Shown here in pieces: positions 5,017 to 64,000 of a stretch of 64,000 nucleotides of DNA (position 1 is its first letter; the number at the start of each line of letters is the position of its first letter). Where the stretch lies: assembly GCA_964420125.1 (NCBI GenBank), contig CAYQQQ010000019.1:1-64000 (forward strand). Reading direction: 5' to 3'. Made by a program: the position numbers and the translations under genes. The DNA is from an uncultured Microthrixaceae bacterium (GTDB lineage: Bacteria; Actinomycetota; Acidimicrobiia; Acidimicrobiales; Microtrichaceae). The notes under the pieces are model-generated. The model saw only the letters and a list, made by a program, of their open reading frames with translations. It did no database searches and had not been told where the DNA came from.

Positions 5017-6647
5017 GCGGATGCACCTCCACCCATCGACTCGGCCATCGACCGGTGGATGTCGGCGCGGAACCTCACCCAGCCGAAGACCAGGGCCACG
5101 AGGATCCACACCGCGACCCCGACGTTGAGCACGACGAGCTCGGGAGTCGCGGAGGTGGTGCGGCCGGCCACCAGCAGCGGCGCGAACCCGAGCATCGCCA
5201 CCAGCGGAGGCCACGCGGTGCGCAGGACCAGGCGGGGCCCGGCGACCTCCGGGGTCAACAGCGCCCCCGACGTCTCGGGGGTCGACCCGGACAGCACGCT
5301 GATGGCCGCACCGGCGACCGCTGCGGGCCCTGCGATGAGGACCCCGACCACACCCAGGGTCAGCACGTCCGCAGTCGGATCCACGGCCCAGGCCACGCCG
5401 ACGCCGACCGCGCCCGCCAGGACCATCACCAGGCAGGGCGCGACGAGGTGGCGCAGGTGGAGCTGTCCGAGGGGGACCGGGAAGCCGGCGGTGAGGGTGG
5501 GGTGGTCGATCTCCTCGGCCAGCGGCTCGGTGGCGTCCAGCGCCGCCACGAAGGTCGCCACCCCGGCCACGACGACCAGAGGTGTGGTGCCCGACCACAT
5601 CCCGCGCGCGGCCAGCGCGGCCACGGCGCACAGCACGACGACCCGGACCACTCGGATCGCCGGCCAGTGGGCGATGCTCTGGAGGTCGCGTCCGAGCACC
5701 GGCTGCCGGGAGCTGAGGAGGCGTGGCACGGGGAACCACCGGCGGTTCCTCGGGAGCTCCGAGGCGAGCTGGCGGCGCAGCAGCACGACGGAGCGGAGGT
5801 CCTGCACGGTGACCGCGAAGCGGAGCTGGCCGACCAGCTGGGTCCGCCGTCGGGCCGCCTCGATCGACAGGCCGCCGATGGCGAGGGTGCCGGCGGCGGC
5901 CAGGGAGAGGGCCACGAGGACGCCGCCGAGCCCCACGGTGCCCGAACGCAGCGGCCACAGCGCCAGCCGAGCGACCTGGGTGGTCGGGGCGTTCGGCACC
6001 CTGACCGGGGGATCTCGGAGGTAGGTGCTGACCAGCGACGCGGTGGCCCACGCCAGCAGACCCCAGGACACCGCCCAGGCGATGACGCCGGGGACACGCC
6101 GAGAGGAGGTGACCAGGGCGGCACCGAGGCCCATGGTGAGCAGGGTCGCCCCGAAGAGGGCGCCGACCGCCACCCACTCGGTGTTGGAACCCGGGAGGCG
6201 TTGGGCGGCCAGCGAGCCCGCCAGGCCGAACGCCAGAGCTCCACCGAGCGCGCCGTAGCCGAGCACCTCGATGCTGGGCCTGCGCAGCGTGGCACCACGG
6301 CTCACCGGGGCCAGGAGGAGGTGGTGGACGTCCGGCGCTTCGAGCGCCAAGGGTCCGCCGCGACCGCCGGAGCGGACACCGGCGACGAGCACCACCGCCA
6401 CGAGCAGTCCCAGCCACCCGGGAGCCTCGTCCGCCACCTGGGCCGCGGCCTGCGCCGTGAGCTCCTGGTCGCCCACCCAGCCGGCCAGCATCATGGCCAC
6501 CACAAGGCAGAACAGGGCCGTGGTGTAGACGCGGTAGGCGAGGTCCCCCCACTGGGTGTCTCCCAGGCGTCGGCGGCGACGGGTCGCACGCAGCTCGGCC
6601 ACAGCGGCCCACGTGGTCGGTTCGGGAGGGGGTTCGAGGGGGAGCAT
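5013..6647 (-). CDS. Polytopic membrane protein, putative ABC-2-type permease partner
   Basis: Long hydrophobic translation with >10 predicted TM segments; 4-nt overlap with downstream ATPase; start chosen at internal ATG 6647 (MLPLEPP...), the upstream part of the ORF is Arg-rich low complexity. Confidence 0.55.
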   Translation of the reverse strand: MLPLEPPPEPTTWAAVAELRATRRRRRLGDTQWGDLAYRVYTTALFCLVVAMMLAGWVGDQELTAQAAAQVADEAPGWLGLLVAVVLVAGVRSGGRGGPLALEAPDVHHLLLAPVSRGATLRRPSIEVLGYGALGGALAFGLAGSLAAQRLPGSNTEWVAVGALFGATLLTMGLGAALVTSSRRVPGVIAWAVSWGLLAWATASLVSTYLRDPPVRVPNAPTTQVARLALWPLRSGTVGLGGVLVALSLAAAGTLAIGGLSIEAARRRTQLVGQLRFAVTVQDLRSVVLLRRQLASELPRNRRWFPVPRLLSSRQPVLGRDLQSIAHWPAIRVVRVVVLCAVAALAARGMWSGTTPLVVVAGVATFVAALDATEPLAEEIDHPTLTAGFPVPLGQLHLRHLVAPCLVMVLAGAVGVGVAWAVDPTADVLTLGVVGVLIAGPAAVAGAAISVLSGSTPETSGALLTPEVAGPRLVLRTAWPPLVAMLGFAPLLVAGRTTSATPELVVLNVGVAVWILVALVFGWVRFRADIHRSMAESMGGGASA

Positions 6648-7573: not shown

Positions 7574-9628
7574 GTGATGGATGGACTGGCCGTGCTGATC
7601 GCGGTGGGTGTCGTGGGGCTGCTGGTGCTGCTGATGCTGCTGCTGAGCTTCCACTCGATCGGGCCCTCCGAGATCGGTCTGGTGACGAAGCGGATCGGCC
7701 GCAAGCTCGGCGAGGACCAGCTGATCGCCCTGAACGGCGAGGCGGGCTACCAGGCCGACCTGTTGATGCCAGGGCTCCGACTCAAGGTGTGGCCGGTGTT
7801 CAAGGTCGAGCGCTACCCGTGGGTGCAGGTGCCCCCGGACCACATCGGGTTGGTCATCGCCCAGGTGGGCCATGCGCTGCCGACCGGCCACAAGTCGGCG
7901 ATCTACCGCCCCGAGTTCGGCAACTTCGCCGACCTGCGGGCCTTCCTCTCCGGCGGAGGCCAGCGGGGCGTGCAGCGACCGGTGCTGCCGCCGGGCACGA
8001 CGGTGCCGATCCACCCCGTCGGCTTCGTGGTGACCACGAGCAGCCAGATCTTCGGCAAGGTGATCTCCGACACGACGCTCTCGGCGGTCGACCAGGTCGA
8101 TCCTGCCGCGCTGCGGGTCACCAACATCACCCCCCAGGGCGACAAGGACATCGTGGGCGTCGTGACCACCCTCGAAGGTCCACCGTCGGCCGACATCGCC
8201 AGCCGCATCAGCGGGTTCTCCGACGTGACCGCCATGGAGCAGGCGGGCACCGGCACCGCCAGCCAGGTGATCCAGGCGGTGCTGCGATCGAAGAACGACC
8301 TGCACGACAACTACCAGAACTTCCAGGCGTTCCTCGACAACGGCGGGTGCATCGGCCTGCAGCACGACCCGCTGCTCTACGGCTCGTACCTGCTCAACCC
8401 CTTCCTGGTGCGGGTCGAGCTGCGGGAGATGCTGGTGGTGCGCCAAGGCGAGGTGGCCGTCATGAAGGCCTACGTCGGCCTCCCCACCGAGGACACCTCG
8501 GGCGCGGAGTTCAAGTTCGGCTCGATCGTGAAGCCCGGCCACCAGGGGATCTGGTCGGAGCCGCTGCGCACCGGCAAGTACCCGCTCAACCCCCGCATCT
8601 ACGAAGCGGAGATCGTCCCCACGTCGATCCTCACCCTCAACTGGTCGCACGCCACCTCGGAGGCCCACAGCCTGGACGAGCGGCTCGCCCCGATCGACGC
8701 GAAGTCGAAGGAGGCCTTCACGTTCAGCATCGACCTGCAGGTGCAGATCCACGTACCCGACACCCGGGCGCCGAAGGTGATCTCGATGGTGGGCACGATG
8801 CAGAACCTGGTCAACGAGGTGCTGCAGTCGGCGGTGGGCAACTACTTCCGCAACAAGCTCCAGACCCTCGGTGCCACCGAGTTCATCGAGAAGCGCGACG
8901 AGGTGCAGAACGCGGCGGAGGGCTACATCCAGCAGTACCTGTCGCGCTACGAGGTGGAGACCCGCGGGGTGTACATCCAGGACGTCGTGTTCCCCGCCGA
9001 CCTCGTGCAGGTGCTGACCAGCCGCGAGATCGCCGCCCAGGAGCGCGCCACCTTCGGCCAGCAGCGCGAGGCCCAGGAGGCGAGGGTGAGCCTGGAGCAG
9101 CAGCGGGGCGTCGCCGACATGCAGGCCCAGCTCGCCCAGGCGAACGTCTCGATCGACATCGAGCGCTCCCGCGCCGAGGCAGCCCGGGCGCGCGCCGATG
9201 GCGAGGCCTCGGTGATCACCGTCACCGGCTCCGCGGAAGCCACGCGCACGCGCGACATCGGCAACGCCAACGCTGCGGCCGAGGAGGCGTTGGGCCTGGC
9301 ACGGGCCAAGGGCTTCGATGCCCAGCGTCGAGCCATCGGCTCCGAGCAGACGGCGCTGGTGGCCACGCTGCGCGAGGTGGCTGCCGGCCACGTGAAGATC
9401 GTGCCGGACATCCAGGTCGGTGGTGGCGGCGGCGTGATGGACGGGGTCGGCGCCCTCCTGATGCGGGCGCTCGCCGACCACGGGCGTGACGGATCGGGCC
9501 CCGAACAGGGCTCCAACGGCGATCGACCCGAGGCCGACGCGGTGCCCGCGGAGTCGCCGCCAGCGGCGGCCCCGGCATCCTCCGCCTCGCCGACACCCCC
9601 GTCGTCCCCGACAGATCCAGCCGCGTGA
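7574..9628 (+). CDS. SPFH/band-7 flotillin-like protein
   Basis: N-terminal TM helix, SPFH core, long Ala/Glu/Gln-rich coiled-coil (EAQEARVSLEQQRGVADMQAQLAQANVSIDIERSRAEAARARADGEA) typical of flotillin/YqiK. Confidence 0.8.
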   Translation: MMDGLAVLIAVGVVGLLVLLMLLLSFHSIGPSEIGLVTKRIGRKLGEDQLIALNGEAGYQADLLMPGLRLKVWPVFKVERYPWVQVPPDHIGLVIAQVGHALPTGHKSAIYRPEFGNFADLRAFLSGGGQRGVQRPVLPPGTTVPIHPVGFVVTTSSQIFGKVISDTTLSAVDQVDPAALRVTNITPQGDKDIVGVVTTLEGPPSADIASRISGFSDVTAMEQAGTGTASQVIQAVLRSKNDLHDNYQNFQAFLDNGGCIGLQHDPLLYGSYLLNPFLVRVELREMLVVRQGEVAVMKAYVGLPTEDTSGAEFKFGSIVKPGHQGIWSEPLRTGKYPLNPRIYEAEIVPTSILTLNWSHATSEAHSLDERLAPIDAKSKEAFTFSIDLQVQIHVPDTRAPKVISMVGTMQNLVNEVLQSAVGNYFRNKLQTLGATEFIEKRDEVQNAAEGYIQQYLSRYEVETRGVYIQDVVFPADLVQVLTSREIAAQERATFGQQREAQEARVSLEQQRGVADMQAQLAQANVSIDIERSRAEAARARADGEASVITVTGSAEATRTRDIGNANAAAEEALGLARAKGFDAQRRAIGSEQTALVATLREVAAGHVKIVPDIQVGGGGGVMDGVGALLMRALADHGRDGSGPEQGSNGDRPEADAVPAESPPAAAPASSASPTPPSSPTDPAA

Positions 9629-9634
9629 GCTGAC

Positions 9635-11149
9635 TCACCCAGAGGTCGTCGGGATGCCGAGGAGCTCGAGCGCGGCGGCCAGGGTGGCGCCGCGCTCGCC
9701 GGAGGTGTCGAGCGTGAGCGCCTCGGTCCACGGCTCGGCCCGGGCCGCCAGCGCGCGGGCGATCCCGGGGGTGGCGTCGGATGCGCCGGCGGCTGCGGCA
9801 CCCTCGGGTGCGCCGAGGCGTCGAGCGACCCGCTCCGACGCCACTGCGGGGTCCAGCTCGCAGCGCAGCTCGTGCAGCTCCGAGTGGGTGGCGACGGCCA
9901 CCTGGCGGGCCCAGGTGCGGTGCTCGCTGGTGGTCCAGCTGGCGTCGAGCACCACCGATTCGCCGAGGTGCAGCAGGTGCTCGGCCCGGCGCATCAGCTC
10001 GCGGTAGGTGCGCTCCGTCACCTCCGGGGCGTACAGGCCGTGGTCGAGGGAGGCGCCTCGATGATCGGAGCGCGCCACGCCCTCGAGGTCCTTGCGCAGC
10101 TCGTCGGAGGAGAGCGTCGTCGCCCCCAGGGCATCGGCGACGGCGGCGGCCACGGTGGTCTTGCCCGTGCCGGGAGCGCCGCCCACCAGCACGAGGCGCA
10201 CGGTGGCGGCCCGCAGGTGGTCGAGGCACTGGTGGAGTCGGAGGCGGGCCTCGGCTGCAGCCTCGCGGCACTGGTCGTCGTCAACCTGGAGGGAACGCAG
10301 GCCCCGGACCTTGGCCCGAACGAGGGCCCGCTGTGCGACGTAGAAGTGCAGGAGGGAGCGGGGGTGGTGCTCGGCGGTGAGCTCGTCGTAGGTGCGCACG
10401 AGCTCGTCGGCGGCGCCGGACCCGCCGGGGAGCGCCTCCAGGTCCATGGCGAGGAAGGCGAGGTCGGCCAGCACGTCGCCACGTCGCAGGTCGTCGTCGA
10501 AGGCGAGGCAGTCGAGGATGCGGGGCCCGTCCGGGAGGCAGAAGATGTCATCGGCCAGCAGGTCGCCGTGGCCGTCCACCACGTGGCCCTGCGCGATGCG
10601 GGCCTCGAACAGAGGGTCCCGGGCGTCCAGGTAGTCGAGCGCGCGCTGTCGGACCTCGGCGAGCAGACCCGGATCGTGCACCGGCCGCCCGTCGCGGACC
10701 TGTGCGGTCATCTGGTCGAGGTTCTCCGCCGTCCAGAGCTGTCGCAGCCATCCCACCCGGGCGACCCGGGCGGCGCCGGGGTCGGCGGGGAGCGACGCGT
10801 GGAAGCGGGCGAGCACCCGGGCCACCTCACGCACGCGGTCGACGAGCTCGTCGGAGCCGGCCAGCGCGCTGAGCCGCCGCGACGAGGGAAGTCGCCGCAT
10901 GACGATCATGTGGTCGACGACCTCCCCCCGCTCGAGGATGGGGCTCACGCCGAGGTAGACGTCGGGGCTGAGCCGGCAGTTGAGGGCCACCTCCCGGTGG
11001 CAGGCGCGAGCGCGCAGCTCCATCGAGGAGTAGTCGAGGAACTCGGTGCGGATGGGCTTGAGGATCTTGAAGGCCCGATCCGAGGTGAAGAACACCCAGG
11101 AGATGTGGGTCTCCGCCACCGCTGCGGCCGGGGGAGGCGTCGATGCCAT
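9635..11149 (-). CDS. Bifunctional phosphotransferase (APH-like kinase fold) / P-loop ATP-binding protein
   Basis: N-terminal APH-like region with HGDLLADDIF catalytic motif; C-terminal Walker A GGAPGTGKTT. Confidence 0.75.
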   Translation of the reverse strand: MASTPPPAAAVAETHISWVFFTSDRAFKILKPIRTEFLDYSSMELRARACHREVALNCRLSPDVYLGVSPILERGEVVDHMIVMRRLPSSRRLSALAGSDELVDRVREVARVLARFHASLPADPGAARVARVGWLRQLWTAENLDQMTAQVRDGRPVHDPGLLAEVRQRALDYLDARDPLFEARIAQGHVVDGHGDLLADDIFCLPDGPRILDCLAFDDDLRRGDVLADLAFLAMDLEALPGGSGAADELVRTYDELTAEHHPRSLLHFYVAQRALVRAKVRGLRSLQVDDDQCREAAAEARLRLHQCLDHLRAATVRLVLVGGAPGTGKTTVAAAVADALGATTLSSDELRKDLEGVARSDHRGASLDHGLYAPEVTERTYRELMRRAEHLLHLGESVVLDASWTTSEHRTWARQVAVATHSELHELRCELDPAVASERVARRLGAPEGAAAAGASDATPGIARALAARAEPWTEALTLDTSGERGATLAAALELLGIPTTSG

Positions 11150-36580: not shown

Positions 36581-36599
36581 CCTTTGCCAAGCCTTTACC
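36581..36599. promoter_or_regulatory. Direct repeat CCTTTGCC-n3-CCTTTACC (11-bp phasing) in the divergent promoter between the RR-HK operon and the ApbE operon
   Basis: Two 8-bp repeats one helical turn apart, the geometry used by OmpR/PhoB-type regulators; 40-58 bp upstream of the RR start codon. Confidence 0.3.
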
Positions 36600-36606
36600 C
36601 CGCTCT

Positions 36607-36635
36607 GGGGTACCCCTCACGCGGGGCCCCGTACC
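36607..36635. promoter_or_regulatory. Perfect palindrome GGGGTACCCC followed by GGGGCCCCGTACC
   Basis: Two GC-rich self-complementary motifs sharing GTACC, in the same divergent intergenic region. Confidence 0.25.
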
Positions 36636-36697: not shown

Positions 36698-37270
36698 ATG
36701 ATCTCCAGAACCGCACTCGTGACGGCCGCTGCGGCCACCGCGGTGGTCCTGGCCGGGTCGTTCGCCATGGGGGCCAACCTCGGGGTGTTCGACTCCCCGA
36801 ACGACGCCGCCGCGGTCGGACAGCTCGACCTCGCAGACGCCCAGGCCGCACCCACCGCCACCGGACCCGGCGACGCCGGCTCCGGTGAGATCGCCTCCTG
36901 GAGCACCCAGGACTACGACGTGGACGGCGCCGGCATCGTCTCGCTGCGGTGGCAGGACGGGGCGATCGAGGTCGCCCGTGCCCAGCCGGCCGACGGCTGG
37001 AGCGCAACGGTGCAGCCGTCGGGCAGCGCCGAGGCCGCGACGGTGGACTTCACCGACGCGGACGGCACGGTGCACCGCTTCGGCGCCCAGCTGCACGCCG
37101 ACGGCTCGGTGCAGGCCGCGGTGGTGACGCTCCCACCCGCTGCCGCCGCTGGCGGCGGCTCGTCCGAGGGCGGAGAGCGCGAAGGCGACGAGCACGAAGG
37201 CGACGAGCACGAGTCCAGGGAGCACGAGGCCGAGGAGCACGAGTACGAAGGTGGTGAGGACGATGACTGA
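36698..37270 (+). CDS. Secreted protein with acidic His/Glu-rich C-terminal tail
   Basis: RBS GGAAAGGA, signal peptide MISRTALVTAAAATAVVLAGSFAMGAN; C-terminus EGDEHEGDEHESREHEAEEHEYEGGEDDD encoded by a short tandem repeat. Confidence 0.6.
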   Translation: MISRTALVTAAAATAVVLAGSFAMGANLGVFDSPNDAAAVGQLDLADAQAAPTATGPGDAGSGEIASWSTQDYDVDGAGIVSLRWQDGAIEVARAQPADGWSATVQPSGSAEAATVDFTDADGTVHRFGAQLHADGSVQAAVVTLPPAAAAGGGSSEGGEREGDEHEGDEHESREHEAEEHEYEGGEDDD

Positions 37271-37604
37271 GGCAGCCCGCACTGCCGCCCGGAACCCCGG
37301 TGGTCGCCGAGCCCCGCACCCGGCACAGGGGGCGCGCATCGCCGCGGCGGGCTTCGGCACCGCCGCCACCTTGGTGCTCGTCGGGGCGATGTCGATGGAC
37401 GAGTCGGCCCGGAGCGGCCTCCCGACGCCGGATGCCACCTCGAGTGTGATCATCCTGCCTCCCCGAGGTGCCGCGTCGACCACTGGCGGGAGCACCCCGC
37501 CGGTGGTCCTTCGCAGCGAACCCTCCACGAGGGTGGTCTCCGGCGGTCCCACGGCCGCCCCGCAGCCGCTGCGTGTCGACGCCACCACGTCGGGGAGCCG
37601 TTGA
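37251..37604 (+). CDS. Small hypothetical membrane-anchored protein
   Basis: One predicted TM helix (IAAAGFGTAATLVLVGAM); overlaps previous gene by 20 nt and next gene by 4 nt; moderate GC3 bias. Confidence 0.35.
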   Translation: MVRTMTEAARTAARNPGGRRAPHPAQGARIAAAGFGTAATLVLVGAMSMDESARSGLPTPDATSSVIILPPRGAASTTGGSTPPVVLRSEPSTRVVSGGPTAAPQPLRVDATTSGSR

Positions 37605-38479
37605 TGGACGAGGCGGTGCGCCGGCTCCGTGGCCGGGCGATGGCCAGCTCTGTGGAGGTCGTGGTGGTGGACGGCCCCCACCAGGCCGAGCGGTGGGCCG
37701 CAGCGCGCATCGACCAGCTGGAGCAGCGATGGAGCCGCTTCCTGCCGCACAGCGAGATCACCCGACTCAACGCCGCAGCCGGCGCGACGGTCTCGGTGCA
37801 CCCCGACACGAGTTGCCTCCTCTCGGCGATGTTGCAGGGATGGCACCTCGGCGGAGCCCGGTTCGATCCCCGCGAAGCCGGCGATGGCACCGGGGCACCG
37901 TCGGCCATCCGGCCGCTCGATGACGACCTGACGCTCGACCAGCTCGAGGGGACCGCCTGTCTGGCGCCAGGGGTCACCCTCGATCCGGGAGCGATCGGCA
38001 AGGGCTTGGCAGCAGACCTCGTCGTGCAGGAGCTGCGGCGCATGGGGTGCCGGGGTGCGCTGGTGGGCATCGGCGGCGACCTCAGCGCGTCAGGAGCGCC
38101 ACCGGAGGGGGAGCGCTGGCGCGTCGAGGTGGAACCCGTCCTCGGTGACGTCGACGAGCCGCCGCTCCGGTTGGACATCGAGGGTGGGGGAGTCGCCACC
38201 TCCAGCGTCCTGCACCGCCACGGCGAGCTGGCCGGCCTGCCGCGGCAGGACCACCGTGCTCCCCGCGCAAGGGTGCCGGTCGGGCCCGCGGACCTGCTCA
38301 GCGCGACCGTGGTGGCTCGATCGGGATGGCTGGCGGAGGTGCACGCCACGGCCGCCCTGCTCGCCGGGGAGTCCGGCGCCGTCCGGCACCTGAGAGCTCA
38401 CGGCCTCACCGGTGTGCTCCAGACGTCGGAACAGGTCCGAGTGGTCGAGCTCGACTCCAGCGGGTCACGGTCGTGTTGA
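37601..38479 (+). CDS. apbE: FAD:protein FMN transferase (ApbE family)
   Basis: ApbE core LDPGAIGKGLAADL, GALVGIGGDL; TTG/ATG start 37601/37604. Confidence 0.8.
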   Translation: MMDEAVRRLRGRAMASSVEVVVVDGPHQAERWAAARIDQLEQRWSRFLPHSEITRLNAAAGATVSVHPDTSCLLSAMLQGWHLGGARFDPREAGDGTGAPSAIRPLDDDLTLDQLEGTACLAPGVTLDPGAIGKGLAADLVVQELRRMGCRGALVGIGGDLSASGAPPEGERWRVEVEPVLGDVDEPPLRLDIEGGGVATSSVLHRHGELAGLPRQDHRAPRARVPVGPADLLSATVVARSGWLAEVHATAALLAGESGAVRHLRAHGLTGVLQTSEQVRVVELDSSGSRSC

Positions 38480-39060
38480 GCTCTCAGCTCTGGTGGTTCC
38501 TCGGTCGTGCCTCGGGGATCGTGGGATGGTGGATGCTCACCGCCTCGGTGCTGATCGGGATCGTCGTCGCGAGCGACCTGTTCTGGCAGCGGCGCCGCCC
38601 GAAGTGGCTGCTGGACCTGCACCGCGGCCTGGCGGGGCTCACGCTGGCCTTCGTGGGGCTGCACCTGCTGGCGCTCCTCGGCGACAGCTACCTGGAGCTC
38701 GACCTCGCGGACCTCCTGGTGCCGTTCGCCGCGTCGTGGCGCCGAGGGGCGGTTGGGCTGGGTGTCCTCGGCTTCTGGGGTCTGGTGGCCATCCAGACGA
38801 CATCGGCGATGATGCACCGCCTGCCTCGTCGCTGGTGGCGGGCCGTGCACCTCGGCAGCTACCCGGTGTTCGCCATGGTGGCCCTGCACGGAACCCTGGC
38901 GGGCACCGACGCCGCCCGTGGTTGGTACGTCGCCGGCACGACGCTGGCGCTGGCCGCGGTGATGGCGGGTGGGATCTACCGGATCCTGCAGCGTCGCTCC
39001 CGCCAAGCGGCTCTGGCGGATCGGGGGCGGCTCGGTCGAACGGCGGGCACCGGGAGGTGA
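38473..39060 (+). CDS. Ferric-reductase-like transmembrane heme-binding protein (MsrQ/YedZ-like)
   Basis: 6 TM helices with paired His residues (LDLHRGLAGLTLAFVGLHLL; MMHRLPRRWWRAVHLGSYPVFAMVALHG) characteristic of the FRD bis-heme domain; GTG start overlaps ApbE stop. Confidence 0.65.
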   Translation: MLSSQLWWFLGRASGIVGWWMLTASVLIGIVVASDLFWQRRRPKWLLDLHRGLAGLTLAFVGLHLLALLGDSYLELDLADLLVPFAASWRRGAVGLGVLGFWGLVAIQTTSAMMHRLPRRWWRAVHLGSYPVFAMVALHGTLAGTDAARGWYVAGTTLALAAVMAGGIYRILQRRSRQAALADRGRLGRTAGTGR

Positions 39061-58214: not shown

Positions 58215-58577
58215 TCAGCCGGCCGTGGCGCTGAGCTGTGCGCGCACCTCGTCCATGTCGAGCTCCTGTGCCTGGCGGATCAGGTCCTCCAGCCCGGCCT
58301 CCGGCAGCGCGCCCGCCTGGTTGTAGAGCAGGACGCCGTCGCGGAACACCATCAGCGTGGGGATGGACATCACGCCCAGGGAGCCCGCGAGCGCCTGCTC
58401 GGCCTCGGTGTCGACCTTGGCGAAGACGATGTCGGGATGGGCCTCCGAGGACTTCTCGAAGATGGGTCCGAACATGCGGCAGGGGCCGCACCAGGATGCC
58501 CAGAGGTCGACCAGCACCGTCCCGTCGGCGGCGACGGTCTGCTCGAAGTTGTCGGCGGTCAGCTCGATCGTGGCCAT
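58215..58577 (-). CDS. trxA: Thioredoxin
   Basis: WCGPC active site, 120 aa, thioredoxin fold. Confidence 0.9.
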   Translation of the reverse strand: MATIELTADNFEQTVAADGTVLVDLWASWCGPCRMFGPIFEKSSEAHPDIVFAKVDTEAEQALAGSLGVMSIPTLMVFRDGVLLYNQAGALPEAGLEDLIRQAQELDMDEVRAQLSATAG

Positions 58578-58644
58578 GTGTCGTTCTTCCTGTCGTCGGT
58601 GGTCGCGGTGTCCGTTGCACCGGATCCTCCAGGATGAACCACCG

Positions 58645-58658
58645 TACCCCATGGGGTA
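58645..58658. promoter_or_regulatory. Perfect 14-bp palindrome TACCCCATGGGGTA in the trxA / monooxygenase divergent promoter (CsoR-family-operator-like)
   Basis: GC-rich TACCC...GGGTA pseudo-palindrome architecture resembling CsoR/CstR operators and the motif upstream of the CsoR-family gene at 63323. Confidence 0.4.
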
Positions 58659-58729
58659 TTCCCGCAGCCGCGCACGGACCTGTCGGGCTGACGGCTATCC
58701 TCCCGCCGGTCCCGAACCAGGAGCTGCCC

Positions 58730-60259
58730 GTGAGCTTGGACCACCTCCCAGCCGAGCCTGAGGCCGGCACCGAGGGAGTCGAGCGCGTGAGGTCGGTCGA
58801 CGTGGCGATCGTCGGTGCCGGCGCCGGGGGGTTGTGCATGGCGGCCCGCCTCCGTGAGCAGGGCATCGAGGACCTGGTGATCCTCGAGAAGTCCGACGGG
58901 GTCGGAGGCACCTGGCGCGACAACACCTATCCGGACGCCGCCTGCGACGTCCCCTCCCATCTCTACAGCTTCTCCTTCGCCACCAAGGCAGACTGGAGTC
59001 GCAAGTGGGCCAAGCAGCCGGAGATCCTCGGCTACTTCGAGCACGTCGTCCAGCGCTACGACCTGGAACGCCACCTCGAGCTGCGCACCGAGGTCGCGGA
59101 GTGCCGGTGGCTCGACGCGGCGCAGTGCTGGGAGCTGCGCACCGCAGCCGGTCCTCGGTTGCGCGCCCGGGTGGTGATCTGCGCCCTCGGCCAGCTCAAC
59201 GTGCCGTACATCCCCGAGCTGCCGGGCCTCGGGGACTTCGACGGCACGGTGTTCCACTCGGCGCGCTGGGACCACGAGCACGATCTGCGTGGCGAACGGG
59301 TGGGTGTCGTCGGCGTCGGGGCCTCGGCCATCCAGTTCGTGCCGCCGGTGGCCGACGTCGCCGCGTCGGTCACGCTCTTCCAACGCAGCCCCAACTACGT
59401 GGGGCCGAAGCGGGACAGGGAGTTCCGTCGTTGGGAGCGGTGGGCCTTCGCCCGCGTTCCGGGCGTGGCGCGCCTCTACCGAGGGTCCATCTACTGGCGA
59501 CACGAGGCTCGCTTCGCCCTCATGCGCCGCAACTCGCTCCTCGGCCGGCTCCTGCAGGAGGCCTTCCGGCGTCGCGTCCGGGAGCTGGCCGACGACCGTC
59601 TCCCGATGGAGGCCCTGATGCCGGCGTACGCGCCCGGGTGCAAGCGCGTGCTGATCGCGGATCGTTGGTACCCGACGCTACGGCGCGAGAGCGTCGAGGT
59701 CGTCACCTCGCCGGTGCGACGAGTCGTCCCGACGGGGATCGAGTGCGACGACGGTCGTCGATTCCCGCTGGACACGCTCGTGTTCGGCACGGGCTTCCGC
59801 ACCACGGACTTCCTCACCCCGATCCGGGTGACCGGGCGCGACGGTGCAGATCTCGACGCGCTGTGGGCGTCGGGTGCGGCGGCCTACCTCGGCATGGGCA
59901 TGCCGAGGTTCCCGAACCTCTTCCTGCTGTACGGGCCGAACACCAACCTCGGGCACAACTCCATCCTGTTCATGATCGAGCAGCAGGTGGGCTACGTGCT
60001 CGCCGCCCTGGAGCAGCTGCGCCAACGGGGGGCGACCTCCATGGAGGTCACGGACGGGGCGATGGCGCGCTGGGAGCGCGAGGTGCGTCGCCGAGCGGAG
60101 GAGACGGTGTGGGCCGAGGGGTGCGGCAGCTGGTACACGACCGACGACGGTCGACTCACCAACAACTGGGTGGGTCGCACGACGGAGTACCGGCGCCGAC
60201 TGCGCCGCCCGCGCTGGACGGACTGGTCGTTCCACGTCGGCAAGCCGAACCTCAGCTGA
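58730..60259 (+). CDS. Type I Baeyer-Villiger / flavin-containing monooxygenase
   Basis: FAD GxGxxG AIVGAGAGG, BVMO fingerprint FDGTVFHSARWD, second Rossmann VGVVGVGASA; CCAGGAG RBS before GTG 58730. Confidence 0.8.
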   Translation: MSLDHLPAEPEAGTEGVERVRSVDVAIVGAGAGGLCMAARLREQGIEDLVILEKSDGVGGTWRDNTYPDAACDVPSHLYSFSFATKADWSRKWAKQPEILGYFEHVVQRYDLERHLELRTEVAECRWLDAAQCWELRTAAGPRLRARVVICALGQLNVPYIPELPGLGDFDGTVFHSARWDHEHDLRGERVGVVGVGASAIQFVPPVADVAASVTLFQRSPNYVGPKRDREFRRWERWAFARVPGVARLYRGSIYWRHEARFALMRRNSLLGRLLQEAFRRRVRELADDRLPMEALMPAYAPGCKRVLIADRWYPTLRRESVEVVTSPVRRVVPTGIECDDGRRFPLDTLVFGTGFRTTDFLTPIRVTGRDGADLDALWASGAAAYLGMGMPRFPNLFLLYGPNTNLGHNSILFMIEQQVGYVLAALEQLRQRGATSMEVTDGAMARWEREVRRRAEETVWAEGCGSWYTTDDGRLTNNWVGRTTEYRRRLRRPRWTDWSFHVGKPNLS

Positions 60260-61808
60260 GCGGCGCCACCATCGCCTCCACCACCGACGGGCCCTCCACG
60301 GCGAACGCCGCCTCGAGCTGCTCGGTGAACTCCTCGGCGGTGGTGGCGCGGGACGCGTGCGCGACGCCGCAGCCCTCGGCCAGCGCCACGAAGTCGAGAT
60401 CGGGTCGGTCGATCCGCAACATGGCGTTGGCCCGCTCGCCGTCGCCGGTGGCACCGACCCGATCGAGCTCCATCTTCAGCACGGCGTAGGCGCTGTTGTT
60501 CAGGATCACGGTGGTGACGTCGAGTCCCTCGCGGACCTGTGTCCACCAGGACTGCAGCGTGTACATGGCGCTGCCGTCGGCCTGCAGGCTGAAGACCTTG
60601 CGGTCCGGGCAGGCGATCGCCGCGCCGGTGGCCACCGGCATGCCGTAGCCGATCGCTCCGCCGGTCAGGGTCATCCAGTCGTGGGGCGGGGCGCCGGCGG
60701 TCATCCCGGCGACGAACAGCCCGGTGGTGTTGCCCTCGTCGGCGACGATCGCATCCTCGGGCAGCAGTGCCCCCACGGCGGCCGCCATGGTCTGCGCTGT
60801 GAGGGCGCCTGTCGGCCGCTCGGGTCGGGATGCGGGAGCCGCAGGTGCCTCCGCATCGCCAGCGAGGAGGTCGGCCAGCTCGGCCAGGGCGGTAGCCGAA
60901 TCGTCACCGGGGAGGCTGAGGTGGTGCACCGTGCAACCGGCGGGAACCAGCTCCGAGGGCTTCTCCGGATAGGCGAAGAACGACACCGGGGCGCTGGCTT
61001 CCACGAGGATCAGGTGCTTGAGGCCGTCGAGCTGCATCTGCGCGAACTCCGCGAGGTAGCCCAGGCGTTCCGCAGGGACGCGGCCTGCTCCGCGCTCGTA
61101 GCGCGCGGGGAAGGTCTCCGCGAGGAGCTTGGCTCCGGTGGCGGCGGCGACGCGGCCGGCGTCGGCCAACGGGCCTGCCAGGCAGGCGGTGCCGCCGACG
61201 AAGAGGCCGCACGGCTCGCCGCTGCGCAGGATCTTGGCCACCTCTTCCAGCCGCCCCGACTCCACGGGGTTCGCCCGGGGGACGGGGAGGGGGGCGGCCG
61301 GCCCACCGGAGGGGAGCCAGCTGGCATCCGCCGGCAGGATCAGGGTGGAGATCTGCCCCGGAGGACCGTGGGCGGCGGCGACCGCCTCCGCAGCGTCTCG
61401 AGCGACGTCCTCGGGGGAGTTGCTGCGGCGGACCCATCCCTCGAGGCTGGCGGCGATGGAGGCGATGTCCGACTGCAGCGGCGCGTCGTAGCGGGCGTGG
61501 TAGGTGGCGTGGTCGCCGACGACGTTCACGACGGGAGTGCGGGCGCGGCGTGCGTTGTGGAGGTTGGCCAGGCCGTTGCCGAGCCCGGGACCGAGGTGCA
61601 GCAGCACGGCCGCGGGTCGTCCGGCCATGCGTCCGTAGCCGTCCGCCGCGCCGGTGGCCACCCCTTCGAAGAGGGCGAGCACCCCACGCATCTCGGGCAC
61701 GTCGTCGAGGGCGGCCACGAAGTGCATCTCCGAGGTGCCGGGGTTCATGAAGCAGGTGTCGACTCCGGAGTCGATCAGCGTGCGGATGAGTGCGTTGGCG
61801 CCGTTCAT
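60252..61808 (-). CDS. Thiamine-diphosphate-dependent enzyme (benzoylformate decarboxylase / acetolactate synthase-like)
   Basis: Three-domain ThDP enzyme architecture; ThDP-binding GDG-type motif (LQADGSAMYT...NN). Confidence 0.85.
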   Translation of the reverse strand: MNGANALIRTLIDSGVDTCFMNPGTSEMHFVAALDDVPEMRGVLALFEGVATGAADGYGRMAGRPAAVLLHLGPGLGNGLANLHNARRARTPVVNVVGDHATYHARYDAPLQSDIASIAASLEGWVRRSNSPEDVARDAAEAVAAAHGPPGQISTLILPADASWLPSGGPAAPLPVPRANPVESGRLEEVAKILRSGEPCGLFVGGTACLAGPLADAGRVAAATGAKLLAETFPARYERGAGRVPAERLGYLAEFAQMQLDGLKHLILVEASAPVSFFAYPEKPSELVPAGCTVHHLSLPGDDSATALAELADLLAGDAEAPAAPASRPERPTGALTAQTMAAAVGALLPEDAIVADEGNTTGLFVAGMTAGAPPHDWMTLTGGAIGYGMPVATGAAIACPDRKVFSLQADGSAMYTLQSWWTQVREGLDVTTVILNNSAYAVLKMELDRVGATGDGERANAMLRIDRPDLDFVALAEGCGVAHASRATTAEEFTEQLEAAFAVEGPSVVEAMVAPLS

Positions 61809-61835: not shown

Positions 61836-63209
61836 TCAGAAGATGGTGTCGGGGTTCATGATGCCCTTCGGGTCGAAGGCGGCCTTGATCCGGCGCATGA
61901 GCGCCAGCTTGGCGGGGTCCTCGAGGGCCAGGAGGTGGTCCCGCTTGGCGTGGCCGATGCCGTGCTCGGCGGAGATGGCGCCCCCGAGGGCGATGCCGGC
62001 TTGGAGGAGGTCGTGCATCACGCCCTCGCGCACCTCGGCATCGCCGTTGCAGAACACCCCGAGGTGCACGTTGCCGTCGCCGGCGTGGCCGCAGCCCGCG
62101 ATCCAGGCTCCGTAGCGAGCGCCGATCTCCGACACGCTCGCCATGTACTCGGGGATCCTGGCCCGGGGGACGACGACGTCCACGACCTCGTCGGCGTTGT
62201 TGGCCTTGGAGATCCAGAAGGCCTTCTCGCGGGCGTCGATGAGCTGCTCTGCGGAGTGGGGCGGCAGGACGTACACGTCGAGGGCGCCGAGCTCCCCGAG
62301 CTGGAGTGCCAGGCTCTCGGTGTCCTGCTCCAGGCGGTCCTCGTGGGAGCTCTCCAGCATGACCACGAGGTAGGCCAGCGCGGCTTCGCGGACCTCCTCG
62401 GGGATGCCGAGGTCGAGGCCGACGAAGGCCGTGGCTGCCGCCATCGTCATCATGTCGATGTACTCGAGGATGAGCGGGCCGATCCCGGAGTCGACGATCC
62501 GCGGCACGGCAGCGGTCACCTCCTCCAACGTGGAGAACGGTGCCAGCACGGTTGCCTGGTGGGGGAGCCGGGGCTGCAGCTTGAGGGTGATCTCGGTCAC
62601 CAGGGCCAGGGTGCCCTCGCTGCCCACCACGAGCTGGGTGAGGTCGTAGCCCGAGGTGGCCTTCACGAAGCGCCCGCCGCTGCGAAGGACCTCCCCGCCG
62701 GGGAGCACGAGCTCCAAGCCGAGCACGTGGTGGCGGGTGACGCCGTACTTGACGGCCCGCATCCCACCGGCGTTGGTGTTCACGTTGCCGCCGAGGCTGG
62801 CGGAGTACTCCCCGGGGTAGACCGGGTACACGAAGCCGTGCCGGGCGAGCTCCTCATCCAGCTCGTTGAGGCGTACCCCGGGCTGCACCACCACGACGTG
62901 GTTGTCGGCGTCGACCTCCAGGATGCGGTTCATCCGCTCGAAGCTCACCAGGATGCCGTCGGAACGGGCGATGGCCGCGCCCGAGAGCCCGGTGCCGGCA
63001 CCCCGCCCGGTCACGGGGATCCCGTGCTCGTCGGCCACCCGCAGCACCGCGGCCACCTCCGCGGTGCTCTCCGGGGTCACCACTGCGGCGGGCCGGCACG
63101 CGCTGATGGTGAGGGCCTCGTCGTGGGTGTAGTCCTCGCCGATGTCGTCGCCCATCAGCACGCGGCCCTCGGGGAGGGACGCGGCGAGCAGGCGTTGGAC
63201 GTCGGTCAT
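61836..63209 (-). CDS. FAD-linked oxidase (GlcD / D-lactate dehydrogenase family)
   Basis: FAD_binding_4 motifs GRGAGTGLSGAAI, C-terminal FAD-oxidase domain GISAEHGIGHAKRDHL; AGGAGGA RBS before ATG 63209. Confidence 0.85.
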   Translation of the reverse strand: MTDVQRLLAASLPEGRVLMGDDIGEDYTHDEALTISACRPAAVVTPESTAEVAAVLRVADEHGIPVTGRGAGTGLSGAAIARSDGILVSFERMNRILEVDADNHVVVVQPGVRLNELDEELARHGFVYPVYPGEYSASLGGNVNTNAGGMRAVKYGVTRHHVLGLELVLPGGEVLRSGGRFVKATSGYDLTQLVVGSEGTLALVTEITLKLQPRLPHQATVLAPFSTLEEVTAAVPRIVDSGIGPLILEYIDMMTMAAATAFVGLDLGIPEEVREAALAYLVVMLESSHEDRLEQDTESLALQLGELGALDVYVLPPHSAEQLIDAREKAFWISKANNADEVVDVVVPRARIPEYMASVSEIGARYGAWIAGCGHAGDGNVHLGVFCNGDAEVREGVMHDLLQAGIALGGAISAEHGIGHAKRDHLLALEDPAKLALMRRIKAAFDPKGIMNPDTIF

Positions 63210-63322: not shown

Positions 63323-63338
63323 ATACCGTGGGGGGTAC
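63323..63338. promoter_or_regulatory. CsoR-operator-like pseudo-palindrome ATACCGTGGGGGGTAC
   Basis: TACC-N-GGGGGTA architecture matching the recalled CsoR operator form (e.g. B. subtilis copZA operator TACCCTACGGGGGTAT); about 50 bp upstream of the CsoR-family gene. Confidence 0.4.
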
Positions 63339-63388: not shown

Positions 63389-63658
63389 ATGGAGATCCCC
63401 GAGGAGGTGCGGGCCGAGCTGCTGAAGCGGTTGCGGCGGGCGGAGGGCCAGGTCCGCGCCGTGCAGCGGATGTTGGACGAGGGCGCGGAGTGCCGGGATC
63501 TCATCACCCAGATCTCCGCAGCCTCGAAGGCCATCGATCAGGTGGGGTTCCGCTTGCTCGCCACCGGAATGGCCCAGTGCGCCGAGGACCCTCGCCGGGC
63601 GGAGGCGGAGGGATACCCCCTCGCGGAGATCGAGCGCCTGTTCACGAAGCTCGCCTGA
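63389..63658 (+). CDS. CsoR/RcnR-family (DUF156) repressor lacking all histidines (two-Cys, CstR-like)
   Basis: DUF156 signature AECRDLITQISAASKAID; Cys35 and Cys64 present but position 60 is Gly and the protein has no His at all. Confidence 0.8.
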   Translation: MEIPEEVRAELLKRLRRAEGQVRAVQRMLDEGAECRDLITQISAASKAIDQVGFRLLATGMAQCAEDPRRAEAEGYPLAEIERLFTKLA

Positions 63659-63659
63659 G

Positions 63660-64000
63660 ATGGCCGAGGGGATCCCGAGCGTCGCACCGGAGTGCGTCCT
63701 CGACCACGTGGAGCCCGGCACCGACCTGGTCGTGCCCCTGGCCAACGGTGAACCGGTGAGCCTGCTGGATGCCGTCGAGTCGGCGGCCGATCGGCTGGAC
63801 GGCGTGCGAGTGCACCAGATGCACGTGCTCCACGAACGCCCCTACCTGGACGGTCGCCACGGCGACCGACTCCGCCACGTGTCGTACTTCCTCTCGCACG
63901 TGACGCGCCCGCACCTCCACCACGGAGGACTCGACTTCGTCCCCACGCACTTCTCGGAGGTCCCCCTCCTGCTCGAGCACACGACGCGGCGCCCGCTGAT
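63660..64000 (+). CDS. Acetyl-CoA hydrolase/transferase-family protein, N-terminal part (runs off window)
   Basis: Open frame from ATG 63660 to window end; N-terminal pattern (DHVEPGTDLVVPLANGEP...YFLSHVTRP) consistent with the AcetylCoA_hydro N-domain. Confidence 0.45.
   Translation, partial: MAEGIPSVAPECVLDHVEPGTDLVVPLANGEPVSLLDAVESAADRLDGVRVHQMHVLHERPYLDGRHGDRLRHVSYFLSHVTRPHLHHGGLDFVPTHFSEVPLLLEHTTRRPL

What the first reader, a model, noticed from the sequence alone, without database searches (positions are those of the whole stretch)
58578..58729. Perfect 14-bp palindrome TACCCCATGGGGTA between thioredoxin and a Baeyer-Villiger monooxygenase: possible second operator of the His-less CsoR-family regulator
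The trxA/BVMO divergent promoter contains a perfect GC-rich palindrome whose architecture (TACCCC-N-GGGGTA) mirrors the motif upstream of the CsoR-family gene 4.7 kb away (TACC-GTGG-GGGGTAC). CsoR/CstR-family repressors bind this kind of site as tetramers. A thiol- or persulfide-sensing repressor controlling thioredoxin would be biologically coherent, and it could also gate the adjacent oxidative catabolic genes. This would define a small regulon not predictable from annotation alone.
Basis: inference. Interest (0 to 1): 0.6.

Follow-up and report, generated by a model that had tools for sequence, protein, structure and literature searches.

The report
Persulfide-type repressor site controlling thioredoxin
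The 14-bp palindrome in front of the thioredoxin gene is very probably a real, evolutionarily conserved binding site for a CstR-like (copper-blind, cysteine-based) CsoR-family repressor, which adds a dedicated thioredoxin to a known kind of sulfur-stress regulon. It is not a new kind of system.

Summary
TACCCCATGGGGTA occurs once, at 58645-58658, between divergent trxA (start 58577, minus strand) and a flavin monooxygenase.

The regulator at 63389-63658 is a PF02583 protein with Cys35/Cys64 and Gly at the copper-binding His position.
- 27 of 31 homologous regulators in other genomes carry a 14-bp TACC-N6-GGTA site just upstream of their own gene. Three use the identical 14-mer.
- A weight matrix built only from those foreign sites ranks the trxA palindrome first in the 64-kb window (24.4 bits) and the regulator's own site second (14.3 bits).
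- All 8 closest trxA orthologs examined, plus two metagenome loci, keep a strong site 45-110 bp upstream of trxA. This holds even where the monooxygenase or the regulator cluster is absent. It is the only invariant block in that region.
- Relatives of the regulator sit beside persulfide dioxygenase-rhodanese, rhodanese and SulP genes.
- The 14-bp spacing matches the experimentally defined Streptomyces coelicolor CstR-like site (ATACC-N6-GGTAT), not the 15-bp copper-CsoR site.

Control of the monooxygenase is not supported, because the site travels with trxA. Binding and the inducing signal remain untested. This is a new member of a known kind, of moderate interest.

The parts
58645..58658 (.). 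Operator: perfect 14-bp palindrome TACCCCATGGGGTA (16-bp extended site 58644-58659, GTACCCCATGGGGTAT). Its near edge is 68 nt upstream of the trxA ATG and 72 nt upstream of the monooxygenase GTG 58730.
   Evidence: Unique in the window. Top weight-matrix score in the window, 24.4 bits, against a shuffle maximum of 17.9. The orthologous site is conserved upstream of trxA in L115-L122, L036 and L040. The identical 14-mer is the autoregulatory site in L012, L016 and L017.
58215..58577 (-). trxA: 120-aa thioredoxin with a WCGPC active site. It is the proposed regulated gene and is not adjacent to trxB.
   Evidence: PF00085 at 88.5 bits. TIGR01068 at 103.5 bits, above the 96.8 cut-off. Orthologs at 76-91% identity all carry the upstream site.
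58730..60259 (+). Flavin-containing / Baeyer-Villiger-type monooxygenase, divergent from trxA. The start is uncertain (GTG 58730 with an AGGAG Shine-Dalgarno sequence, or GTG 58787). Co-regulation is possible but not supported by conservation.
   Evidence: Matches Pyr_redox_3 and FMO-like. Gene callers disagree on the start: 58634 in L032 and L126, 58838 in L123. The operator stays with trxA when this gene is absent or distant.
63324..63337 (.). Autoregulatory operator TACCGTGGGGGGTA (16-bp site 63323-63338) in the divergent promoter region between the GlcD-like oxidase and the regulator. It is degenerate, with 2 mismatches in the left arm.
   Evidence: Second-best weight-matrix hit in the window, 14.3 bits. 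It aligns with the stronger orthologous sites CTGATACCCTnnGGGGTA in L115-L118, L001 and L003.
63389..63658 (+). CsoR-family (PF02583) regulator, 89 aa, with an x-C-G-C motif (Cys35, Gly60, Cys64). It is CstR-like.
   Evidence: PF02583 at 79.9 bits. Alignment to 4adz CsoR puts Gly at the Cu-ligand His position. The clade alignment shows conserved Cys and Gly/Ser/Ala at that position. It is the only PF02583 gene in the window.
61836..63209 (-). GlcD-like FAD-linked oxidase, divergent from the regulator. It probably shares the autoregulatory operator.
   Evidence: FAD_binding_4 plus FAD-oxidase_C. Synteny with the regulator in L001, L003 and L115-L119.
60252..61808 (-). Thiamine-diphosphate enzyme of the acetolactate-synthase-like PRK07586 type, downstream of the GlcD-like gene.
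   Evidence: TPP_enzyme_N and TPP_enzyme_C. NF005760 at 768 bits.
63660..64000 (+). Start of an acetyl-CoA hydrolase/transferase-family gene. It begins 2 nt after the regulator's stop codon, so it is probably co-transcribed, and it is cut by the window end.
   Evidence: The sequence shows TGA 63656-63658 and ATG 63660. The Logan contig L032, identical to the window over the 400 bases aligned, shows AcetylCoA_hydro/AcetylCoA_hyd_C genes after the regulator.

Best explanation
The palindrome is a type-2 CsoR-family operator (a TAC-N8-GTA dyad around an interrupted G/C tract).

In the reduced state, a CstR-like repressor binds it, as family members do (reported as two tetramers per site), and represses a dedicated secondary thioredoxin gene, trxA. 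The most likely binder is the x-C-G-C protein encoded 4.7 kb away at 63389-63658.

When Cys35 and Cys64' are modified, the repressor leaves DNA. The most likely modification is bridging by di-, tri- or tetrasulfides after reaction with persulfides or polysulfides. trxA is then expressed and can reduce protein and low-molecular-weight persulfides and disulfides. The regulator's own operon and the divergent GlcD-like/TPP operon would be de-repressed at the same time.

Shown here: the site, its statistical rarity, its conservation with trxA, the shared motif at homologous regulators, the absence of the copper-ligand His, and the sulfur-detoxification neighbourhood of relatives.

Inferred: actual binding, repression, the identity of the binder and the inducing signal.
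For: 1. The site is unique, with 0.04 expected.
2. 27 of 31 loci with homologous regulators carry TACC-N6-GGTA within 160 bp upstream of the regulator gene. That accounts for 32 of all 48 such 14-mers in 464 kb. L012, L016 and L017 use exactly TACCCCATGGGGTA.
3. A weight matrix built without window data scores the trxA site at 24.4 bits, rank 1 of 64 kb, against a shuffle maximum of 17.9. The regulator's own site scores 14.3 bits, rank 2.
4. The 8 closest TrxA orthologs looked up (76-91% identity, L115-L122) all have a 21.7-28.0-bit site 45-110 bp upstream of trxA, in three different gene contexts. L036 and L040 have one too.
5. In the 11-sequence alignment the only invariant block besides the ATG is TACC...GGGTA, with mean column identity 43%.
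6. The arrangement regulator / GlcD-like / TPP / (monooxygenase) / trxA, with exactly two strong sites, recurs in L115-L119.
7. In L018 the regulator is followed directly by a thioredoxin-like gene with a WCHPC motif.
8. Homologs neighbour PDO-rhodanese fusions, rhodanese, SulP/STAS and DUF302, with second operators next to those genes.
9. The regulator has Gly at the Cu-ligand His position and a Cys35/Cys64 pair 29 residues apart.
10. Literature: S. coelicolor ScCsoR (Cys37/Cys66) binds ATACC-N6-GGTAT and is released by polysulfide (PMC7533328). The x-C-x-C clusters, including an actinomycete cluster, are candidate persulfide sensors (PMC8643695).
11. Streptomyces Cu-CsoR sites are one bp longer, TAC-N9-GTA (PMC3902906).
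Against: - No experiment shows binding or regulation.
- The window holds no persulfide dioxygenase, rhodanese or SulP gene. The regulator's immediate neighbours (GlcD-like oxidase, TPP enzyme, CoA-transferase) have no evident sulfur role, so the signal could differ from persulfide.
- L120 and L122 keep the trxA site with no regulator within 10 kb. L121 keeps it although no regulator gene is found in the cluster. Proximity is therefore not required, and another family member could be the binder.
- 19 more distant trxA/monooxygenase loci (TrxA 59-70% identical) lack any site.
- The promoter is not mapped. A TANNNT hexamer overlapping the trxA-proximal end of the site is present in only 5 of 11 orthologs.
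- The regulator's own site in this genome is weak (14.3 bits).
Confidence: 0.7

Rival explanations
1. The site is a genuine CsoR-family operator, but a paralog encoded elsewhere in the genome binds it rather than the regulator 4.7 kb away. The paralog could be a PDO-linked CstR or a Cu(I)-sensing CsoR.
For: L120 and L122 have the trxA site without any PF02583 gene within 10 kb. L121 has the gene cluster but no detectable regulator gene. CsoR and CstR operators are known to be very similar, and the two proteins can coexist in one cell (PMC8643695). Only 64 kb of the genome was available.
Against: The regulator is the only PF02583 gene in the window. Its orthologs' own sites have the same 14-bp motif. 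Regulator-trxA synteny recurs in at least 6 genomes. No genome appeared twice among the 31 regulator loci. The 14-bp spacing differs from the 15-bp Streptomyces Cu-CsoR sites (PMC3902906), and for TTHA1953 a 1-bp spacing change costs 10-15-fold in affinity (PMC10318464).
Confidence: 0.15
2. The neighbouring regulator binds the site, but in this GlcD-context subclade it senses something other than persulfide. Candidates are a reactive aldehyde or electrophile produced by the adjacent oxidase/TPP/CoA-transferase pathway, or general disulfide/oxidative stress. On this reading trxA is a general thiol-repair output.
For: The window has no sulfide-detoxification genes. The GlcD-context regulators form a derived subclade nested among the PDO/rhodanese/SulP-context ones. 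Family precedent comes from my own knowledge: FrmR senses formaldehyde through a cysteine. TTHA1953 loses DNA binding with H2O2 or Cu(II) in vitro (PMC10318464).
Against: The regulator has no Pro2, the FrmR determinant (it starts M-E-I-P). Both cysteines of the CstR dithiol pair are retained. It is 57-63% identical to relatives that sit beside PDO-rhodanese genes. The operator motif is unchanged.
Confidence: 0.2
3. The palindrome has no regulatory function. It could be a chance GC-rich inverted repeat, an RNA hairpin in a 5' leader, or part of the monooxygenase coding sequence (ATG 58634 as called on Logan contigs).
For: Prodigal-type calls on L032 and L126 start the monooxygenase at 58634, which would place the site in codons 4-9. 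Short palindromes can arise in 71% GC DNA.
Against: Expected chance frequency is 0.04. The site is conserved in 10 other loci while its flanks diverge. The site lies outside the called monooxygenase ORF in L115 and L116 and exists where there is no monooxygenase at all (L117, L120, L122). ATG 58634 has a poor ribosome-binding context. The RNA fold z-score is -0.92, and the minimum-energy fold does not pair the two palindrome arms with each other. There is no Rfam match.
Confidence: 0.03

Closest known systems
Streptomyces coelicolor ScCsoR (SCO0620), the characterised member of the actinomycete CstR-like group (SSN cluster 3 of Fakhoury et al. 2021, which also holds M. tuberculosis Rv1766)
   Same: PF02583 fold. 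Two cysteines 29 residues apart (Cys37/Cys66 there, Cys35/Cys64 here). No copper-ligand His. Operator ATACC-N6-GGTAT, i.e. the same 14-bp TACC-N6-GGTA core. Autoregulation from a divergent promoter. Relatives of the window regulator neighbour PDO, rhodanese and a sulfite/sulfate-type transporter, as ScCsoR does (PMC7533328, PMC8643695).
   Different: The window regulator sits beside a GlcD-like oxidase, a TPP enzyme and a CoA-transferase rather than PDO/rhodanese. The second target is a thioredoxin, which is not among the four genes reported as ScCsoR-repressed (PMC7533328). The host is an Acidimicrobiia-type organism rather than Streptomyces.
Staphylococcus aureus / Enterococcus faecalis / Streptococcus CstR (SSN clusters 4 and 10)
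   Same: An x-C-x-C dithiol sensor that is copper-blind because the Y-position His is missing. It represses from a TAC...GTA G/C-tract pseudopalindrome, fitted with a two-tetramer binding model (PMC8643695). PDB CstR 7mq1 aligns with E = 8.5e-9.
   Different: Asn occupies the Y position in the 7mq1 CstR sequence, where this protein has Gly. The S. mitis cst operator core is 15 bp (TACCCTTATGGGGTA) against 14 bp here. Their regulons are cstAB-sqr or rhodanese/CoA-persulfide reductase genes, not thioredoxin. The window protein is more similar in sequence to actinomycete CsoR (4adz, E = 1e-13).
Cu(I)-sensing CsoR (M. tuberculosis, S. lividans, B. subtilis) and RicR
   Same: Same fold, same two cysteines, and the same kind of operator with TAC/GTA dyads flanking G tracts. 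S. lividans CsoR is the best PDB sequence match.
   Different: The defining Cu-ligand His is replaced by Gly. Streptomyces CsoR operators are TAC-N9-GTA, one bp longer (PMC3902906). No copZ/copA was seen next to the regulator or the sites.
Thermus thermophilus TTHA1953 (a CsoR-family regulator of the Sox pathway)
   Same: A two-cysteine CsoR-family repressor. Its validated targets include a thioredoxin gene (TTHA1422, SoxW), de-repressed 113-fold in the mutant (PMC10318464). This is a precedent for thioredoxin under CsoR-family control.
   Different: A different operator (the 20-bp TACNNTACNNNNGTANNGTA with no long G tract). That thioredoxin belongs to the sox gene cluster and is listed as SoxW, whereas this one is a stand-alone 120-aa WCGPC thioredoxin.
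OxyR (E. coli) and AdpA (S. coelicolor) control of thioredoxin/glutaredoxin for sulfane-sulfur removal
   Same: The physiological logic: a sulfane-sulfur-responsive regulator switches on thioredoxin to reduce persulfides and polysulfides (PMC6831875, PMC9952706).
   Different: Unrelated regulator families that act as activators, not CsoR-family repressors.

Membership tests
CsoR/RcnR superfamily (PF02583, DUF156) | Significant match to the PF02583 profile over the whole ~90-aa protein | tested here: met
   79.9 bits against a 22.8 cut-off, residues 9-84. PDB hits to CsoR, CstR, InrS and FrmR.
CstR-type persulfide sensors (x-C-x-C) | Cys at the X and Z positions, with no His at the Y position | tested here: met
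   Cys35, Gly60 and Cys64. Gly aligns with the Cu-ligand His of S. lividans CsoR. The Y position is His-free in all 31 homologs. X-position Cys is in all 31, but L016, L017, L019 and L031 lack Z-position Cys.
CstR-type persulfide sensors (x-C-x-C) | Genomic neighbourhood encoding sulfide/persulfide detoxification (PDO, rhodanese, SQR, sulfite exporter) | tested here: inconclusive
   Not met in the window: no PDO, rhodanese, SulP or DUF302 homolog in 64 kb. Met for clade relatives: PDO-rhodanese, rhodanese, SulP/STAS and DUF302 sit beside regulators that are 46-63% identical, with operators next to them.
CstR-type persulfide sensors (x-C-x-C) | Operator of the actinomycete CstR-like type, ATACC-N6-GGTAT | tested here: met
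   The trxA site GTACCCCATGGGGTAT and the regulator's own site ATACCGTGGGGGGTAC both have the 14-bp core. The reference motif is from PMC7533328.
CstR-type persulfide sensors (x-C-x-C) | DNA binding lost on reaction with persulfide/polysulfide through Cys-Cys' polysulfide bridges, with no response to Cu(I) | not testable with these tools
   Requires purified protein, EMSA or anisotropy, and mass spectrometry.
Cu(I)-sensing CsoR / RicR | x-C-H-C copper-ligand set | tested here: not met
   Gly60 replaces the His.
Cu(I)-sensing CsoR / RicR | Adjacent copZ/copA copper-efflux genes | not tested
   Genes flanking the regulator and the sites were annotated and none is CopA or CopZ. The whole window was not scanned for them.
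FrmR (formaldehyde sensor) | N-terminal Pro2 together with Cys35 (P-C-H-x) | tested here: not met
   The protein starts M-E-I-P and there is no alternative upstream in-frame start. NF008464 scores 34.7 bits against a 133 cut-off.
RcnR / InrS (Ni/Co sensors) | H-C-H-H or H-C-H-C ligand set | tested here: not met
   No His at position 3, at the Y position or at the Z position. NF011613 scores 26.7 bits against a 138 cut-off.

The most novel reading that the evidence does not exclude
In this Acidimicrobiia subclade a CstR-like repressor may have been rewired away from the classical persulfide dioxygenase/rhodanese module. Its new regulon would consist of a dedicated thioredoxin plus a GlcD-like oxidase / TPP enzyme / CoA-transferase cluster. 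That cluster lies next to CoxD/E/F-like and XdhC-like molybdenum-cofactor sulfuration and maturation genes. The sensor could then report a different thiol-reactive species: an aldehyde or electrophile from that pathway, or the persulfide load linked to cofactor sulfuration. That would make it a CsoR-family sensor with a new effector logic.
Probability: 0.2. Interest if true: 0.55.

Novelty: new member of a known kind. Interest (0 to 1): 0.38.

Why it matters
If confirmed, a stand-alone thioredoxin would be a conserved, directly repressed target of a CstR-type sensor across several Acidimicrobiia lineages. That would link the persulfide-sensing branch of the CsoR family to thioredoxin-dependent depersulfidation. 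In the literature read here that link runs through OxyR and AdpA, with only a sox-cluster thioredoxin (SoxW) under the CsoR-family repressor TTHA1953.

It would also give a clean, testable operator set of two sites in 5 kb for a largely uncharacterised actinomycete-type group of CsoR-family proteins. The data further suggest that 14-bp versus 15-bp dyad spacing may separate CstR-like from copper-CsoR operators. The gain is incremental: it refines a regulon and does not reveal a new mechanism.

Tried and rejected
1. Sigma-70 consensus scan of 58400-58900: no promoter-like or terminator-like site. The promoter position therefore stays inferred. A TANNNT hexamer overlapping the trxA-proximal end of the site (TACGGT in the window) occurs in only 5 of 11 orthologs, so I do not rely on it.
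2. RNA explanations: fold z-score -0.92 and no Rfam hit. Rejected.
3. The third-ranked weight-matrix hit, 62805-62820 (10.7 bits), lies inside the GlcD-like gene. The same sequence recurs at the same coding position in L038, L039, L042 and L045, where no regulator gene was detected. It is a coding constraint, not an operator.
4. The third pattern match, 36596-36612 (TACCCC-N5-GGGGTA), is a 17-bp dyad. That spacing occurs at none of the 32 regulator-linked sites, so it is not assigned to this regulator.
5. Site conservation across all trxA/monooxygenase pairs: 19 of 21 metagenome loci lack the site. I first read this as sporadic. It resolved into a clade effect once the closest orthologs were examined.
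6. Whether presence of the site tracks presence of the regulator: L045 has neither, but L120, L121 and L122 have the site without a nearby regulator. Only partly informative.
7. Automated clustering of neighbouring ORFs in high-GC loci was swamped by shadow ORFs. I replaced it with targeted Pfam scans.
8. Organism identity: the exact proteins occur only on unnamed JGI and Logan metagenome contigs. Placement in Acidimicrobiia rests on the nearest MAG relatives.

Full report
**Observation**

The 14-mer TACCCCATGGGGTA is at window 58645-58658. It is the only match in 64 kb even when two mismatches are allowed, against 0.04 expected from dinucleotide-preserving shuffles.

It lies between two divergent genes:
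- A 120-aa thioredoxin on the minus strand. Its ATG is at 58577 and it has a WCGPC active site. It passes PF00085 at 88.5 bits and TIGR01068 at 103.5 bits, above the cut-off.
- An FMO/Baeyer-Villiger-type flavoprotein on the plus strand.

The monooxygenase start is uncertain.
- I favour GTG 58730, which has AGGAG 7 nt upstream, or GTG 58787.
- Gene calls on public contigs of the same sequence put the start at ATG 58634 (L032, L126) or ATG 58838 (L123). The 58838 start would delete the GxGxxG FAD motif.
- Only the 58634 call would place the palindrome inside an ORF. That extension is not conserved in relatives.

It sits 52-65 nt upstream of an 89-aa PF02583 (CsoR-family) gene at 63389-63658 and 4.67 kb from the palindrome.

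All three matches are intergenic.

**The regulator**

Aligned to S. lividans CsoR (PDB 4adz, E = 1e-13), the protein keeps both cysteines (Cys35 and Cys64, 29 residues apart). It has Gly60 where the Cu(I)-ligand His sits.

It starts M-E-I-P with no upstream in-frame start, so it lacks the FrmR Pro2. It also lacks the His ligands of RcnR and InrS. It is therefore an x-C-x-C protein, the signature of the persulfide-sensing CstR branch (PMC8643695).

A profile built from its clade finds no second family member in the window. There are also no persulfide dioxygenase, rhodanese, SulP or DUF302 homologs in the 64 kb.

Its neighbours are:
- A divergent GlcD-like FAD oxidase (63209-61836) followed by a TPP enzyme (61808-60252).
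- Starting 2 nt after its stop codon, an acetyl-CoA hydrolase/transferase-family gene.

**Evidence from homologous regulators**

A scan of one genome per species returned 31 loci with relatives at 35-75% identity. Most are Acidimicrobiia MAGs, with Egibacter, Eremiobacterota/Vulcanimicrobiota and Dormibacterota further out.

None of the 31 has His at the copper-ligand position. The N-terminal Cys is invariant, and four lack the second Cys.

In 27 of 31 loci a 14-bp TACC-N6-GGTA site lies within 160 bp upstream of the regulator gene. Those short windows hold 32 of the 48 such 14-mers in 464 kb. L012, L016 and L017 use exactly TACCCCATGGGGTA as that site.

Most of the remaining 14-mers lie beside neighbouring genes. 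Targeted Pfam scans show these to be metallo-beta-lactamase-rhodanese fusions (persulfide dioxygenase type), single rhodaneses, SulP/STAS permeases and DUF302. In L018 the regulator is followed directly by a thioredoxin-like gene with a WCHPC motif.

In a neighbour-joining tree, the regulators with the GlcD-like neighbour (window, L001, L003, L115-L118) form a derived subclade. It is nested among the PDO/rhodanese/SulP-associated ones.

**Scoring the window with an independent motif**

I built a 16-bp weight matrix from the 29 distinct foreign autoregulatory sites, with consensus ATACCCC-NN-GGGGTAT. It gives:
- 24.4 bits for the trxA palindrome, rank 1 in the window.
- 14.3 bits for the regulator's own site, rank 2.
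- 10.7 bits for 62805-62820, rank 3.

The best score in 200 Markov shuffles was 17.9.

The rank-3 hit lies inside the GlcD-like gene. It recurs at the same coding position in orthologs where no regulator gene was detected, so it reflects protein coding.

**Is the site conserved with trxA?**

A metagenome scan with the monooxygenase found the divergent trxA/monooxygenase pair in 21 loci, but only L036 and L040 have a site.

In L036 the monooxygenase is 3.3 kb away. The site remains 83 nt upstream of trxA, next to the 3' end of a co-directional gene.

I then looked up the closest TrxA orthologs, at 76-91% identity. All eight have a 21.7-28.0-bit site 45-110 bp upstream of trxA. They fall into four situations:
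- L115, L116, L118 and L119 have the full arrangement: regulator / GlcD-like / TPP / monooxygenase / trxA. Each has exactly two strong sites, one at the regulator and one at trxA.
- L117 lacks the monooxygenase and keeps the trxA site.
- L121 has the cluster but no detectable regulator gene and keeps the trxA site.
- L120 and L122 have trxA in an unrelated context, with no PF02583 gene within 10 kb, and still keep the site.

In an 11-sequence alignment of the ~140 bp upstream of trxA, mean column identity is 43%. The only invariant block besides the start codon is TACC...GGGTA, within GGAATACCCC-NN-GGGGTA.

The partial syntenic locus L001 has the site upstream of the monooxygenase with the same TTCCCG flank.

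The site is therefore under selection and belongs to trxA. The 19 site-less loci carry more distant TrxA proteins (59-70% identity). In L045, the one case where the sequence continues past the start of the GlcD-like gene (about 700 bp), there is no regulator either.

**Mechanism**

The best-supported reading is a type-2 CsoR-family operator bound by the reduced CstR-like repressor. Binding would be relieved when the Cys35/Cys64' pair is modified. The output is a secondary thioredoxin that can reduce persulfides.

The literature supports each element by analogy:
- S. coelicolor ScCsoR (Cys37/Cys66) binds ATACC-N6-GGTAT at -48 and -9 of its target promoter and is released by polysulfide (PMC7533328).
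- The x-C-x-C clusters, including a large actinomycete cluster, are candidate persulfide sensors (PMC8643695).
- Thioredoxin reduces sulfane sulfur (PMC6831875, PMC9952706).
- A CsoR-family repressor controls a thioredoxin (SoxW) in Thermus (PMC10318464).

The 14-bp dyad (TAC-N8-GTA) equals the ScCsoR spacing. It is one bp shorter than the copper-CsoR sites of Streptomyces (TAC-N9-GTA; PMC3902906). In TTHA1953 a 1-bp spacer change costs 10-15-fold in affinity (PMC10318464). This argues, by analogy only, against a copper CsoR as the binder.

Not shown: binding, repression, promoter position and signal. A consensus promoter scan found nothing. A -10-like TACGGT overlaps the trxA-proximal end of the site, but that feature is present in only 5 of 11 orthologs.

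**Rivals**

- A paralog encoded elsewhere could be the binder, since the site persists without a nearby regulator in L120-L122. I put this at about 0.15.
- The signal could be another thiol-reactive species. This subclade sits with carbon-oxidising genes and the window has no sulfide-detoxification genes. I put this at about 0.2. It is compatible with the operator assignment.
- Chance, an RNA hairpin or a coding-sequence explanation are rejected by conservation, by the fold z-score of -0.92 and by the absence of any Rfam match.

**Verdict**

The central interpretation is supported by strong comparative evidence. The extension to the monooxygenase and other catabolic genes is not supported.

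This is a new member of a known kind: a CstR-type operator at a thioredoxin gene. Its regulon differs somewhat from the classical one. Interest is moderate.

Noticed in passing
window 36596-36612: A perfect 6+6 inverted repeat, TACCCC-GCTCT-GGGGTA (17 bp, TAC-N11-GTA). It lies in the divergent region between an OmpR/MtrA-type response regulator (36541-35888, with a histidine kinase behind it) and a secreted protein with a His/Asp/Glu-rich tail (36698-37270). ApbE (37601-38479) and a ferric-reductase-like membrane protein (38326-39060) follow. The arms match the CsoR-family motif, but the spacing occurs at none of the 32 regulator-linked sites. The binder is unknown.
   Followed up: partly
window 62805-62820: GTACTCCCCGGGGTAG scores 10.7 bits with the operator matrix but lies inside the GlcD-like gene. 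The same sequence is kept at the same coding position in orthologous genes of L038, L039, L042 and L045, where no regulator gene was detected. It is a coding constraint mimicking an operator.
   Followed up: yes
window 58634-58840: Public gene calls for the monooxygenase start disagree: ATG 58634 on Logan contigs (541 aa, would cover the operator) and ATG 58838 on JGI contigs (473 aa, removes the GxGxxG FAD motif). GTG 58730 (AGGAG 7 nt upstream) or GTG 58787 fit better.
   Followed up: partly
L032 5259-10228 (same organism, continues past window end 64000): Downstream of the regulator, the acetyl-CoA hydrolase/transferase gene is split into two overlapping ORFs (245 + 121 aa), which may be a frameshift. 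Next come an Rrf2 regulator, a MoxR-type AAA protein, a VWA CoxE-like protein and two XdhC/CoxI-like proteins. From my own knowledge, these families act in sulfuration and copper insertion of molybdenum-cofactor enzymes. The same Rrf2 and XdhC genes flank the regulator in L116-L119.
   Followed up: no
L001 about 5050-5460 and L003 about 9600-9960 (also part of L118): In these relatives a conserved small ORF sits between the GlcD-like gene and the regulator. It contains a Cys-x-x-Cys motif (KHCALCDITH in L001). The operator lies between it and the regulator. The window lacks this ORF.
   Followed up: no
L018 5160-5770: In this Acidimicrobiales MAG the regulator is followed 70 nt later, on the same strand, by a thioredoxin-like gene with a WCHPC active site. 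This is an independent regulator-thioredoxin link.
   Followed up: partly
L022-L030: The most distant homologs (Eremiobacterota/Vulcanimicrobiota, Dormibacterota, Limnocylindria) carry the same 14-bp sites. They sit beside HlyD-type and AcrB-type RND efflux genes and have a Cys-His pair (DCHA) at the first sensing position, so their effector may differ.
   Followed up: no
window 63323-63338 versus L115-L119: The regulator's own operator in this genome is weaker (14.3 bits, a C-to-G change in the left arm) than the orthologous sites of close relatives (21.7-25.4 bits) and weaker than its own trxA site (24.4 bits). Autoregulation may be leakier than trxA repression.
   Followed up: partly
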